Positions 18,701 through 20,908 of a stretch of 64,000 nucleotides of DNA are shown piece by piece. Below the pieces are notes generated by a model, which saw only the letters and a list, made by a program, of their open reading frames with translations, did no database searches and was not told where the DNA came from. Position numbers and translations under genes: made by a program. Numbering within the stretch: position 1 is the stretch's first letter; every line of letters starts with the position of its first letter. Source of the stretch: Blastocatellia bacterium (GTDB taxonomy: Bacteria > Acidobacteriota > Blastocatellia > RBC074); assembly GCA_043736395.1 (NCBI GenBank), contig JAYTCQ010000174.1, positions 4,886 to 68,885 on the forward strand. Reading direction: 5' to 3'.

Positions 18701-20908
18701 ACGCATTTTTTCTGCTTGACGATAATCCGCTGAAAAGTTACTAAGGTCAGCTAACGGCAAATCAGCCTGTAAAAATGGGGTAATGCGCTGACTGGCTTGC
18801 CCATTTTCAGAAACAAAACTTGTTCGTAAGATTTCGTGACGATCAACTACGGCTTGCAAGGCTTGCTGCAACGCAGAGACTTCAAGTTTTCCCTTGAGCC
18901 GAATGATTTTGCTTAAATTATACGTGGCCGTGGCCGGCTCTAATTGATCCAGAAACCAGAGGCGCTGTTGTGAAAATGAGAGCGGAATTCCGACCTGCTT
19001 ATTTGTCCGCAACAAGGCCGGGACAAAAACTTTAGAGTTACTTTTTTGAAATTGCGTGATCGCTTCAGCCAAGTCTGCAACTGTTGGAGAATTGAAAATC
19101 GTACTTAACGGCAGTTGTATTTTAAAGTCAGTCCGCAACCTTGAAATTACCTGACCTGCCAATAGTGAATGTCCTCCGATGGCAAAAAAATTATCTCGTC
19201 TGCCCACCCGTTCGCGACCTAAAACTTTAGCCCAGATTGCTGCAATAATTTCTTCTATCGGCGTCTTCGGAGCAAGATAACTATCTTGAATTTGAAGAGA
19301 ATTGGCATCTGGTGCTGGCAGCGCTTTGCGATCAATTTTCCCGTTCGGAGTCAGAGGCAAACCATCAATCTTCACAAAAGCGGCGGGAACCATGTAATCC
19401 GGCAATTCGCGTACGATCAGTTCGCGGAGTTCTTGAAACACTGCCTTTTGGGTTTCAGGTTTTGGGTTTCGGGTGACGATGTAGGCGACCAGCTGCTTGC
19501 GTCCAGGAACGTCTTCACAAGCAATGACAGAGCATTCGCGAACACTCGGATGCCTCATGAGAAATGCTTCGATTTCTCCCAGCTCGACGCGGAAGCCGCG
19601 AATTTTTACTTGAAAATCCTGTCGCCCTAAACACTCCAATTCACCATTCGGCAACCAACGCGCGTAATCGCCGGTAGGGACGCTCGAGTAATGAGTGATG
19701 AGTGATGAGTGATGAGTATCAATACCACGAAACTCAAAATTCGAAATTTGAAATTGTTTTCCGTGAAGATAGCCGCGCCCAACGCCTGCGCCACAAACGT
19801 AAATTTCTCCGGCTTCCCCTTTTGGTACAGGTTGCTGATTTTCGTCGAGTAGAAAAATTTGTGTATTGGCGATGGGGCGTCCGATGGGTATGACTTTTAT
19901 TTCTCCACTCAGCTCAGAAGATTTGATGCGATGCATCGCCACAATCCCGCTGGTTTCGGTTTGCCCCATCATGTGAACGTGCGTCGCGGGATGCTTGAAT
20001 TCATTGATCCAGGTGCTTGGAATATCTGACAGCAAAGGTTCACTGGCAGATAAAATTAACCGCAGATCATTCGCTAATAATTCCTCTCGTTGCGTTTCGG
20101 CAAGCTCTAATAAAGCATTTGTACAATGCCGCTGGAACGAAGGCACCGCATCGAAAACTGTGACGTGATATTTTTTGATTAGGGCGAAAAGCGGAAGCGG
20201 ATCCATCCGCTGTTCTTCATCCGCAATAACGACAGTGGCTCCGTGCGCCAGCGGGAAAAGCAAATGACGACGCGACGACGAAAATCCAATTGAAGCCAGG
20301 TGCAAATAACAATCCTGCGGCGTGAGCTGTAATTCGTTTTGCAGCGCTGTCACATAATGCGTGAGATTGCGCTGCGTCAACATGGTGCCTTTGGGCTTGC
20401 CTGTCGAACCAGAGGTATAAATCAGATAAGACAAATTTTCAGCATTGAGTTGAGCCTGAAGATTTTCTGCGCTGTGTTTTGAAATTTCAGACCAGTCCGT
20501 ATCAAGCGAAACAAACTGAGAATCCGCATTTAAAAACTGAGGCAGCAAGCGCGATTCAGTGACGACGATTGGAGCCGCAGTGTCCGCCAGCATAAATGCG
20601 ATGCGATCTGTCGGGTACGCCGGATCAATCGGCACAAACGCCGATCCTGATTTAAGAATTCCAAGAATGCCAACCGCCATGTCTACGGATCGCCCGACAC
20701 AGATCGGAATCATCACTTCCGGCCCTGCGCCAAGTGATCCTAAATAATGTGCCAATTGATTGGCTCGCTGATTTAGTTCGTTGTAGGTTAGTTGTTGCTG
20801 ATTGCACACGACGGCAACCTGTCGCGGCAGGAGGGCGACTTTCTGCTCAAAGAGTTCGTACCAGCAAGACTCTAGTTTATGCGTTGTGTTTATTTCTTTG
20901 GGTTCCAT
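15731..20908 (-). CDS. non-ribosomal peptide synthetase, two modules: A1-T1-C2-A2-T2 with a C-terminal acidic docking (COM-like) tail; no TE
   Basis: A core motifs appear twice (LSYLIYTSGSTGKPKG / LAYVIYTSGSTGQAKG, GELCIGGNGVTRGYL, GRQDFQVKIRGFRVELGEIE / GRADAQVKLRGFRIEPGEIE, LPLTPNGKIDRK twice). Two PCP motifs (FFAIGGHSLLA and FFSLGGHSLLA). One C domain (HHIISDGWS). The protein starts directly with an A domain (no C) and ends with the acidic tail [27 protein letters not shown]. In A1 the Asp235 position reads FSSS instead of FDxS. Confidence 0.9.

What the first reader, a model, noticed from the sequence alone, without database searches (positions are those of the whole stretch)
20100..20260. 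Starter adenylation domain lacks the conserved Asp235 (FDxS becomes FSSS): probable non-alpha-amino-acid starter unit
Aligned without gaps from the A3 motif to GrsA-PheA, the first A domain of the 1725-aa NRPS reads ..LHLASIGFSSSRRHLL.. where PheA has ..QFASISFDASVWEMF.. The Asp that salt-bridges the substrate alpha-amino group is therefore Ser. The A5 motif is also atypical (MMGQTETS instead of NxYGPTE).
The other three A domains in the cluster keep the Asp (SFDVFTGD, SFDAATFE, SFDLSLYE). This is consistent with an N-terminal C-less loading module that activates a carboxylic acid lacking an alpha-amino group (hydroxy, keto, aryl or fatty acid), i.e. an N-capped product.
Basis: partly seen in the sequence, partly recalled or inferred. 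Interest (0 to 1): 0.6.

Follow-up and report, generated by a model that had tools for sequence, protein, structure and literature searches.

The report
NRPS starter domain without Asp235
The first loading domain of this peptide-making enzyme really does lack the aspartate that normally grips an amino acid's amino group, and it belongs to a widespread, uncharacterised family of starter domains that most likely load a small polar acid rather than a normal amino acid.

Summary
The Asp235-equivalent of the first A domain of the 1725-aa NRPS (15731-20908, minus strand) is Ser210, at 20279-20281. The PheA offset is a constant 25 residues from A3 to position 278, so no indel is hidden, and no Asp or Glu lies between residues 200 and 229.

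This is not a one-off. The specificity code SSRDLAMGIK is shared, exactly or nearly, by about 100 of the 120 best database homologues and by 64 of 64 metagenomic orthologues. Arg239, Asp278 and Gly330 are invariant. All catalytic motifs are intact. The domain always sits in an initiation position.

In soil-metagenome orthologues the gene follows a PAP2 phosphatase and a beta-propeller lipoprotein gene, and a C-A-T-TE gene often lies downstream. Here the cassette sits inside a Wzx/Wzy polysaccharide locus. More distant A-T-TE relatives also lie in glycan loci.

Best reading: a starter unit with no amine next to the activated carboxyl, giving X-Orn-Val/Ile. Candidates are a hydroxy acid such as glycerate, a C4-C5 dicarboxylate, or side-chain-activated Glu/Asp. 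The substrate cannot be determined by computation. I found no description of this clade. I rate it a new variant of a known kind, of moderate interest.

The parts
15731..20908 (-). 1725-aa NRPS with domain order A*-T-C-A-T. A* is the Asp235-less starter A domain.
   Evidence: ORF list, translation, Pfam. HHIISDG at residue 773; GGHSL at residues 578 and 1651.
19274..20908 (-). A* (first adenylation domain, residues 1-545). Code at the ten PheA specificity positions: SSRDLAMGIK.
   Evidence: It passes the TIGR01733 cut-off (363 bits against 317). AlphaFold model and Foldseek match to 1amu.
20273..20284 (-). A4 motif FSSS in place of FDxS. Ser210 (20279-20281) occupies the PheA Asp235 position.
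20267..20269 (-). Arg214, at PheA position 239. Invariant in the clade.
20150..20152 (-). Asp253, at PheA position 278. Invariant in the clade.
19949..19972 (-). Atypical A5 motif MMGQTETS. The clade consensus is NMFGQTET; Pro325 is replaced by Gln and Asn321 by His.
19337..19339 (-). Lys524, the PheA Lys517 equivalent (A10 catalytic lysine). Retained.
19034..19261 (-). T1 carrier domain (GGHSL, with the Ser of that motif at residue 581).
17669..18991 (-). Condensation domain with an intact HHIISDG motif and a 'LSFSQQRLWFL' N-terminal motif. The LCL-type assignment is from memory.
16079..17641 (-). A2, code DVGEVGSIDK. Ornithine-like, from my memory of DVGEIGSIDK.
15839..16036 (-). T2 carrier domain.
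14922..15734 (-). Sfp-type 4'-phosphopantetheinyl transferase. Its start overlaps the NRPS stop.
24731..28855 (-). 1374-aa C-A-T-TE termination module, code DAFFIGGTFK (Val/Ile-like; compare DAFWIGGTFK = Val in PMC11355689).
28871..31603 (-). 910-aa stand-alone A-T-TE with a canonical Asp235 and the unassigned code DLYFFSLVEK.
23911..24783 (-). PAP2-family membrane phosphatase. Part of the conserved PAP2-SGL-NRPS cassette.
   Evidence: Pfam; weak hit to undecaprenyl-diphosphate phosphatase; found upstream of the NRPS gene in 64 of 80 metagenome loci.
23006..23914 (-). SMP-30/gluconolactonase/strictosidine-synthase-like beta-propeller. A probable lipoprotein, judged by eye from the N-terminal hydrophobic stretch ending in Cys.
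   Evidence: found in 75 of 80 metagenome loci directly upstream of the NRPS gene.
21014..23002 (-). Laminin_G_3 plus weak metallophosphoesterase match, with a hydrophobic N-terminal stretch that looks like a signal peptide (judged by eye). Lies between the SGL gene and the NRPS gene here and in L090 only.
31621..45868 (-). Co-directional Wzx/Wzy-type polysaccharide genes: GT4, Wzx, GT4, Wzy, GSDH-PKD-PA14 protein, initiating sugar transferase, Wzz-like genes.
46606..49560 (-). TPR protein fused to a sigma-54 enhancer-binding module, at the head of the locus.
19686..19755 (.). Two adjacent 7-bp tandem arrays that encode the aberrant A6-A7 linker of A* ('...FQISNFEFRGIDTHHSSLITHYSS...').

Best explanation
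A* is a catalytically competent NRPS initiation adenylation domain from a conserved, uncharacterised clade. Its code is S235 S236 R239 D278 L299 A301 M322 G330 I331 K517. It has given up the Asp235/alpha-ammonium salt bridge.

Proposed mechanism:
1. A* adenylates a small, polar carboxylic acid that carries no amino group next to the activated carboxyl. Candidates are a hydroxy acid such as glycerate or lactate, a C4-C5 dicarboxylate, or Glu/Asp activated at the side-chain carboxyl.
2. It loads this acid onto T1.
3. The C domain joins it to ornithine loaded by A2 on T2.
4. The separate C-A-T-TE protein adds Val/Ile and releases an N-capped X-Orn-Val/Ile peptide.
5. The adjacent PPTase primes the carrier domains.

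The NRPS genes, together with a PAP2 phosphatase gene and a beta-propeller lipoprotein gene, form a portable cassette. Here it is inserted in a Wzx/Wzy exopolysaccharide locus.

Shown here: the residue identities, clade conservation, domain order and synteny. Inferred: the substrate class, the colinear order of assembly, and any link to the polysaccharide.
For: - Ser at position 235 is established by three alignments, with a constant 25-residue offset and no nearby acidic residue.
- The fold is a standard A domain: TM 0.82-0.87 to 1amu.
- Catalytic motifs are intact, the T-domain GGHSL motifs and the C-domain HHxxxDG motif are present, and A* passes the TIGR01733 cut-off.
- The code SSRDLAMGIK or a near variant occurs in about 100 of 120 top homologues from Pyrinomonadaceae, cyanobacteria and Chloroflexi. 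It occurs in 64 of 64 metagenomic orthologues, whereas the 112 canonical A domains in the same loci all keep Asp235. This argues for purifying selection on a different pocket.
- R239, D278 and G330 are invariant, while positions 301, 322 and 331 vary between subclades.
- A* is always at the N-terminus or stand-alone. Architectures seen are A-T, A-T-TE, A-MT-T, A-T-C-A-T and A-T-C-T. The 'C-A-T' members have no HHxxxDG motif, and two of them begin inside the C-terminal half of a C domain.
- The R239-D278-L299 triad parallels the x-D-L triad of the Glu/Gln code DAQDLGVVDK (PMC12283262).
- An FkbM-type methyltransferase is inserted in some members, next to TauD genes. Relatives of A-T-TE architecture lie in glycan loci. 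Both fit a hydroxy- or carboxy-acid acyl substituent.
- Partner modules in the orthologues encode a basic residue and then Val or Leu.
Against: - There is no biochemical data, and no characterised relative was found.
- Asp278 could bind an amino group deeper in the pocket, so an amino-acid-like substrate is not excluded.
- The C domain looks like an ordinary LCL type (the subtype assignment is from memory). Such domains usually take aminoacyl or peptidyl donors.
- In this window the A6-A7 linker of A* is overwritten by heptamer repeats. 'LYRTGD' has become 'SVPTGD', and pLDDT is below 50 at residues 394-406. This copy might therefore be impaired, although the ORF is intact and the ribose-binding Asp is kept.
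- The statistical link between the clade and glycan genes is weak (p = 0.05-0.14).
Confidence: 0.7

Rival explanations
1. A* activates an acidic alpha-amino acid (Glu, Asp or aminoadipate) at its side-chain carboxyl. The starter is then an iso-peptide-linked gamma-Glu or beta-Asp. The distal alpha-carboxylate is held by Arg239 and the distal alpha-ammonium by Asp278, so Asp235 is not needed.
For: Arg239 and Asp278 are invariant. Arg at position 239 is, from my memory of published codes, the hallmark of side-chain-carboxyl activators: ACVS A1 EPRNIVEFVK and McyE DPRHSGVVGK. The C domain is an ordinary LCL type (subtype from memory). No dedicated precursor-supply genes are conserved next to the cassette, which fits a primary metabolite.
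Against: The known side-chain-carboxyl activators I recall keep an acidic residue at 235 and Pro at 236. This clade has Ser-Ser or Ala-Leu there. Asp278 also occurs in the Glu/Gln code DAQDLGVVDK, whose substrates carry no distal amine. Asp278 therefore does not imply an amine.
Confidence: 0.2
2. A* still activates an ordinary alpha-amino acid, or an N-substituted one, at the alpha-carboxyl in a non-canonical binding pose.
For: A* scores above the amino-acid adenylation domain model TIGR01733. It is about 35-40% identical to canonical A domains. Asp278 is available as a counter-charge.
Against: Asp235 is 100% conserved in 112 neighbouring canonical domains and 0% in the clade. Glu240, Asn321 and Pro325 of the A4 and A5 motifs are changed as well. 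The clade is never found in a true elongation module.
Confidence: 0.07
3. A* in this window is a decaying or inactive domain, and the module is loaded in trans or skipped.
For: Heptamer tandem repeats have overwritten the A6-A7 linker in both A domains of this ORF. Most orthologues examined have the canonical linker, though the closest relative, L090, carries different odd inserts at the same loop. Orthologues of A*-T-C-T architecture show that trans-loading exists in the family.
Against: The ORF is uninterrupted over 1725 codons. The ATP, ribose and Lys517 motifs are kept. The ten code positions are identical to the clade consensus. The closest relative, L090, carries different inserts at the same surface loop, which suggests the loop tolerates them.
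Confidence: 0.05

Closest known systems
Alpha-keto/alpha-hydroxy-acid loading A domains of depsipeptide and aeruginosin-type NRPSs (for example StsA, CesA, Vlm1, AerA; A-KR-T modules)
   Same: They are NRPS-type A domains that have lost Asp235 and accept an acid without an alpha-amino group (principle summarised in PMC11355689). They can also act as initiation modules.
   Different: Those modules carry a KR domain, and their codes are hydrophobic at positions 235/236/239 (from memory). A* has no KR and a polar, charged code with Ser-Ser-Arg-Asp. No sequence-level clustering with them was seen among PDB hits.
Glu/Gln-activating A domains (code DAQDLGVVDK, and DAKDLGVVDK from memory)
   Same: They have the same residues at 278 and 299 (Asp, Leu), with a polar or cationic residue at 239. 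This suggests recognition of a distal carboxylate or polar group.
   Different: They keep Asp235 and Ala236 and act in elongation modules. A* has Ser235 and Ser236 and is only ever an initiator.
Side-chain-carboxyl activators: ACV synthetase module 1 (delta-aminoadipyl) and McyE/NdaA (gamma-D-Glu)
   Same: Arg at position 239. ACVS A1 is also a C-less starter of a tripeptide that ends in Val (from memory).
   Different: They keep an acidic residue at 235 and Pro at 236 (from memory).
DltA/DltC-type and O-antigen AMP-ligase/ACP systems that acylate glycopolymers
   Same: The A-T-TE relatives of A* lie inside polysaccharide loci next to GTs, Wzx/Wzy and NeuABC genes. This resembles carrier-protein-dependent acylation of glycans.
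   Different: DltA keeps the Asp and uses D-Ala. The window gene is a true multimodular NRPS with C domains, not a simple ligase/carrier pair.

Membership tests
NRPS adenylation domain (ANL superfamily; TIGR01733 / PF00501 + PF13193) | Core motifs A3 (SGxTGxPKG), A5 (T/E), A7 (TGD), A8 (GRxDxQVKIRGxRIELGEIE) and A10 (PxxxxGKxDR), and a profile score above the curated cut-off | tested here: met
   PF00501 and PF13193 hits. TIGR01733 scores 363 bits against a cut-off of 317. Motifs read from the translation. Fold TM 0.82-0.87 to 1amu.
Alpha-amino-acid-activating A domains | Asp at PheA position 235, which binds the alpha-amino group | tested here: not met
   Ser210 is at position 235 in three alignments with a constant offset. 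Ser occurs in 64 of 64 clade members, against Asp in 112 of 112 canonical domains.
Alpha-amino-acid-activating A domains | Lys at position 517 | tested here: met
   Lys524 aligns to Lys517.
Keto-acid loading modules (A-KR-T) | A ketoreductase domain embedded in or following the A domain | tested here: not met
   Pfam finds only AMP-binding, AMP-binding_C, PP-binding and Condensation domains in the 1725-aa protein.
Keto-acid loading modules (A-KR-T) | Loss of Asp235 | tested here: met
Aryl-acid (EntE/DhbE-type) or fatty-acyl-AMP ligase starters | Membership of the EntE/FAAL branches of the ANL superfamily; Asn235 for the aryl-acid enzymes; a hydrophobic pocket | tested here: not met
   The best NCBIfam and PDB matches are NRPS amino-acid-type A domains (LgrA, ApnA, McyB, PheA), not EntE or FAAL. 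The pocket residues are Ser, Ser, Arg and Asp.
Side-chain-carboxyl-activating A domains (ACVS A1, McyE) | Arg239 together with an acidic residue at 235 and Pro236 (codes recalled from memory) | tested here: inconclusive
   Arg239 is present, but positions 235 and 236 are Ser-Ser. The reference sequences were not aligned here.
FSSS clade defined here (code S/A-S/L-R-D-x-x-x-G-x-K) | Ser/Ala235, Arg239, Asp278, Gly330, A5 motif GQTET, and an initiation position | tested here: met
   Window code SSRDLAMGIK equals the clade consensus. The domain is N-terminal. The PAP2-SGL synteny is shared.

The most novel reading that the evidence does not exclude
The FSSS/Arg239/Asp278 domains are a previously unrecognised class of NRPS initiation domain. 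They would activate a glycan-related or glycan-decorating polar acid, for example glycerate, a dicarboxylate or a sugar acid. The PAP2/beta-propeller/NRPS cassette would then build a short acyl-peptide that is attached to, or co-exported with, an extracellular polysaccharide in soil Acidobacteria. Stand-alone A-T-TE relatives in cyanobacteria and Chloroflexi would do the same for glycan acylation.
Probability: 0.15. Interest if true: 0.8.

Novelty: new variant of a known kind. Interest (0 to 1): 0.5.

Why it matters
A domains that lack Asp235 are the entry points for non-amino-acid building blocks, and specificity predictors fail on them. This one is not an oddity of a single gene. It marks a large clade with a near-invariant pocket code, spread across Acidobacteriota-like soil metagenomes, cyanobacteria and Chloroflexi. 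I found no assigned substrate for it.

One biochemical assignment would therefore annotate hundreds of gene clusters at once. It would also reveal what N-cap the conserved X-(basic)-(aliphatic) tripeptide of abundant soil bacteria carries. The repeated placement of clade members inside polysaccharide loci raises a testable possibility of carrier-protein-dependent acylation or peptidylation of extracellular glycans.

Tried and rejected
- Literature searches found nothing describing this clade. I searched for the code string, for Asp235 with exopolysaccharide, for Asp235 with loading module, for Arg239, for PDB 8XJZ, for NRPS with Wzy, and for Acidobacteria or Pyrinomonadaceae NRPS.
- The genome-contig scan with the full A-domain alignment was swamped by generic A domains. 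Only 2 of 80 loci (L007, L008) were FSSS-type. I reused the other 78 loci as a background set.
- I tested for enrichment of generic glycan genes near FSSS loci against that background. Two or more hits occurred in 18% against 10% of loci, or 7% when only core EPS genes count in the background set (p = 0.14 and 0.05). This is too weak to claim a clade-wide association. phmmer sensitivity for Wzx, Wzy and GT families is low, and the two sets differ in origin.
- The idea that 'C-A-T' members prove an elongation role was rejected. None of those I checked has the HHxxxDG motif, and two of them begin inside the C-terminal half of a C domain.
- NCBIfam has no specific model for the clade, including the exosortase-associated ligase TIGR03098, which scored 204 bits against a cut-off of 592.
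- The AlphaFold model confirms the fold, but the tools return no coordinates. No pocket geometry or docking could be done.
- A cyanobacterial origin, suggested by the heptamer repeats and a 'Crinalium' homologue, was rejected. The locus encodes a sigma-54 enhancer-binding protein, which cyanobacteria lack as far as I recall, and the best-named homologues are Pyrinomonadaceae. Taxonomy was not verified directly.
- One call failed because of a frame error.
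Full report
**1. What is in the window**

The window carries a long run of genes on the minus strand. It starts with a TPR/sigma-54 enhancer-binding protein at 46606-49560. Wzx/Wzy-type polysaccharide genes follow:
- Wzz-like genes.
- An initiating sugar transferase (40238-41671).
- A GSDH-PKD-PA14 protein.
- Wzy.
- GT4.
- Wzx.
- GT4.

Downstream of these lie:
- A 910-aa A-T-TE protein (28871-31603).
- A 1374-aa C-A-T-TE protein (24731-28855).
- A PAP2 membrane phosphatase (23911-24783).
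- An SMP-30/strictosidine-synthase-like beta-propeller with a lipoprotein-like N-terminus (23006-23914).
- A Laminin_G_3 protein with a weak metallophosphoesterase match and a signal-peptide-like N-terminus (21014-23002).
- The 1725-aa NRPS of the finding (15731-20908; A-T-C-A-T).
- An Sfp-type PPTase (14922-15734).

A subtilase gene and a Wza-like export gene lie divergently at 49804-52480. Housekeeping genes flank the locus: IMPDH, RodZ and ValRS.

The sigma-54 activator and the best-named homologues (Pyrinomonadaceae) suggest an Acidobacteriota genome. This is an inference. The window comes from a 77-kb NCBI contig whose name the tools did not give.

**2. The observation**

The motif LHLASIGFSSSRRHLL is residues 202-217 of the NRPS, at 20258-20305. 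The residue at the PheA Asp235 position is Ser210, at 20279-20281.

Three alignments agree on the placement:
- phmmer against both A domains of LgrA.
- phmmer against 8xjz_C.
- MAFFT with GrsA-PheA plus 124 other A domains.

I then verified it against 1amu_A, where the printed alignment shows one mismatch, at residue 2, over 556 residues, and I checked the numbering at all ten code positions.

The PheA-to-query offset is 25 residues at positions 190, 235 and 278, so no indel is hidden. Residues 200-229 contain no acidic residue. An AlphaFold model built on a 28-sequence alignment is confident (pLDDT 83.5, pTM 0.84). It places the start of the A4 helix at residue 211 and matches 1amu with TM 0.82-0.87.

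The A5 motif is MMGQTETS (19949-19972). The other three A domains of the cluster keep FDxx.

**3. It is a clade, not an accident**

The ten specificity positions of A* read SSRDLAMGIK. About 100 of the 120 best database homologues carry this code or a close variant. One such variant is ALRDVIIGVK, seen in proteins of which the named ones are labelled Chloroflexi or Anaerolineae. Arg239, Asp278 and Gly330 are invariant.

A motif-specific scan of metagenome contigs returned 80 further loci, most of them IMG (Ga...) metagenome contigs. All 64 near-complete A* domains among them read SSRDLAMGIK, with one SSRDVAMGIK. All 112 other A domains in the same loci keep Asp235.

Further conserved residues of A4 and A5 differ systematically: Glu240 to Gln, Gly302 to Ser, Asn321 to His, and Pro325 to Gln. 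The motifs for ATP and ribose binding and for catalysis are retained, and A* passes the curated TIGR01733 cut-off. This pattern indicates selection for a different substrate-binding mode, not decay.

**4. Position in assembly lines**

Across the homologues A* is always N-terminal or stand-alone. The architectures seen are:
- A-T.
- A-T-TE.
- A-(FkbM-type MT)-T.
- A-T-C-A-T, with more than 23 full-length metagenomic copies.
- A-T-C-T, with 12 copies.
- A-T-C-A-T-TE.
- A-T-C-A-T-C-A-T-TE.

Proteins annotated as C-A-T have no HHxxxDG motif, and two of them (P0015, P0085) begin inside the C-terminal half of a C domain. An exclusive initiator role is what one expects if the substrate has no nucleophilic amine next to the thioester. 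It is equally compatible with an iso-linked amino acid.

**5. Context**

In 75 of the 80 metagenome loci the A* gene is directly preceded by an orthologue of the beta-propeller gene. In 64 the PAP2 gene is there as well. In 35 a TE-bearing NRPS gene was detected, mostly downstream (an example annotated by Pfam is L161).

The partner A domains encode a basic residue (D[LTM]EDIG..K, or DVGE[IV]GSIDK) and Val or Leu (DAFWLGGTFK, DAWFLGNVVK). The family therefore makes a conserved X-basic-aliphatic tripeptide. In the window this would be X-Orn-Val/Ile:
- DVGEVGSIDK is Orn-like, from my memory of DVGEIGSIDK.
- DAFFIGGTFK is close to DAFWIGGTFK, which is Val in PMC11355689.

In about a dozen loci, as in the window and in L001, the cassette directly follows Wza, sugar-transferase, Wzx, Wzy and GT4 genes. 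In others it does not; in L161 it lies next to a P450 gene and an A-T gene.

More distant A-T-TE members lie inside glycan loci:
- Nostoc (L004).
- Heteroscytonema (L087).
- A NeuABC/Wzt locus (L088).
- A Chloroflexi locus with UDP-glucose dehydrogenase and GT genes (L089).

Other members start NRPS or PKS lines with no glycan genes in view (L002, L005, L007, L008).

A crude enrichment test against 78 generic A-domain loci was only suggestive: 18% against 7-10% of loci, p = 0.05-0.14. The link to glycans is therefore recurrent but unproven.

**6. Mechanism**

Shown directly: A* has an intact catalytic apparatus, T1 has a GGHSL attachment motif, the C domain has HHIISDG, and a PPTase gene abuts the NRPS gene.

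Inferred: A* adenylates a carboxylic acid without an adjacent ammonium group and loads T1. The C domain acylates the alpha-amine of Orn on T2. The C-A-T-TE protein adds Val/Ile and releases the product.

The pocket points to a small, polar or anionic substrate. It has Ser235 and Ser236, an invariant Arg239-Asp278 pair, bulky Leu299, Met322 and Ile331, and small Ala301 and Gly330. Three considerations narrow the options:
- The x-Asp278-Leu299 pattern is that of the Glu/Gln code DAQDLGVVDK (PMC12283262). This suggests recognition of a distal carboxylate or polar group.
- Arg239 is, from memory, typical of side-chain-carboxyl activators (ACVS A1, McyE). This keeps gamma-Glu and beta-Asp on the list.
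- An O-methyltransferase-type insertion in some members, and methyltransferases next to the NeuABC-associated member, would fit a hydroxy acid such as glycerate.

No conserved precursor-supply gene accompanies the cassette. This favours a primary metabolite.

My estimates are roughly:
- 0.7 that the activated carboxyl has no adjacent amine and the substrate is not an amino acid.
- 0.2 for an iso-linked acidic amino acid.
- Under 0.1 each for a normal amino acid or a dead domain.

**7. A caveat specific to this window**

The A6-A7 linker of both A domains of this ORF is encoded by 7-bp tandem arrays: 19686-19717, 19728-19755, 16458-16482 and 16492-16518. In A* the sequence '...GKQFQISNFEFRGIDTHHSSLITHYSSVPTGD' replaces the orthologues' 'PELTAEKF..PFS..ARLYRTGD'. 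The model is disordered at residues 394-406.

The closest relative, L090, is 61% identical over the whole protein. It has different odd inserts at the same loop of both its A domains. The loop therefore seems to tolerate such inserts, but impaired activity of this copy cannot be excluded.

**8. Comparison with known systems and novelty**

Losing Asp235 to accept non-amino acids is a known principle, seen in keto-acid, aryl-acid and fatty-acid starters (PMC11355689). A* is not a member of those groups. It has no KR domain, no Asn235 and no hydrophobic pocket, and its nearest neighbours by sequence and structure are ordinary amino-acid A domains.

I found no paper, NCBIfam model or PDB entry that describes this clade. 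PDB 8xjz_C has a second A domain that also carries Ser at position 235, but it is only distantly related.

I classify the finding as a new variant of a known kind, real and conserved. Interest is moderate (0.5). It would rise substantially if the substrate proves unusual or if the peptide is shown to be coupled to the polysaccharide.

Noticed in passing
window 19686-19717, 19728-19755, 16458-16482, 16492-16518 (also 19446-19474 and 26254-26286): Arrays of 7-bp tandem repeats lie in frame inside the NRPS genes. They overwrite the A6-A7 linker of both A domains of the 1725-aa ORF, giving 'THHSSLITHYSS' and 'PITHHSSSE'. Most orthologues examined have the canonical linker, but the closest relative, L090, has different repeat-like inserts ('ANPQSAI') at the same loop.
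   Followed up: partly
window 23006-24783; loci L090-L169: A PAP2 phosphatase gene and a beta-propeller lipoprotein gene directly precede the FSSS-type NRPS gene in 64 and 75 of 80 metagenome loci respectively. This is a tightly conserved cassette of unknown product.
   Followed up: partly
L104, L105, L108, L110, L111, L121, L126, L128, L131, L133, L142, L148: Orthologues with A*-T-C-T architecture (about 1240 aa) lack the second A domain. Their second carrier domain must be loaded in trans.
   Followed up: no
window 28871-31603: A stand-alone 910-aa A-T-TE protein has a canonical Asp235 but an unassigned code, DLYFFSLVEK. It sits directly after a GT4 gene. Its role relative to the tripeptide line is unknown.
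   Followed up: no
window 21014-23002: A Laminin_G_3 protein with a weak metallophosphoesterase match and a signal-peptide-like N-terminus is inserted between the beta-propeller gene and the NRPS gene. This occurs only here and in L090. The other cassettes lack it.
   Followed up: partly
window 36993-40106: A 1037-aa protein combining a glucose/sorbosone-dehydrogenase beta-propeller with PKD, Big_7 and PA14 domains lies in the middle of the polysaccharide operon.
   Followed up: no
window 46606-49560: A 984-aa regulator combines about 600 residues of TPR repeats with a sigma-54 AAA+ activator module and an HTH_8 domain. It has no receiver domain and sits at the head of the EPS/NRPS locus.
   Followed up: no
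PDB 8xjz_C residues about 1168-1373: The second A domain of this solved 1634-aa 'Peptide synthetase' also has Ser at the position-235 equivalent ('SVASASFVGE') and an acyl-CoA-ligase-like A5 motif ('GYGLTE'). No paper was found for this entry.
   Followed up: partly
L006 10001-12748; P0053, P0072, P0081, P0086, P0092, P0093, P0099, P0106, P0112, P0119: A subclade with the same SSRDLAMGIK code (SSRDMAMGIK in P0053) carries an FkbM-family methyltransferase domain between the A core and the T domain. In L006 it is flanked by two TauD-family dioxygenase genes, a 2424-aa NRPS gene, a PPTase gene and EPS genes.
   Followed up: partly
L005 10001-18409 (Microcoleus) and P0084, P0100, P0103, P0108, P0109, P0111, P0116, P0118: A 665-aa A-T protein with the variant code SSRDVSVGNK sits directly upstream of a 2100-aa type I PKS in the Microcoleus locus L005 (P0109). 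About 660-730-aa proteins with related codes (SSRDVS[VL]G[NST]K, SSRDLSIGNK) occur in other Microcoleus and Nostoc genomes, whose loci I did not examine. In L005 the same starter type appears to feed a polyketide line.
   Followed up: no
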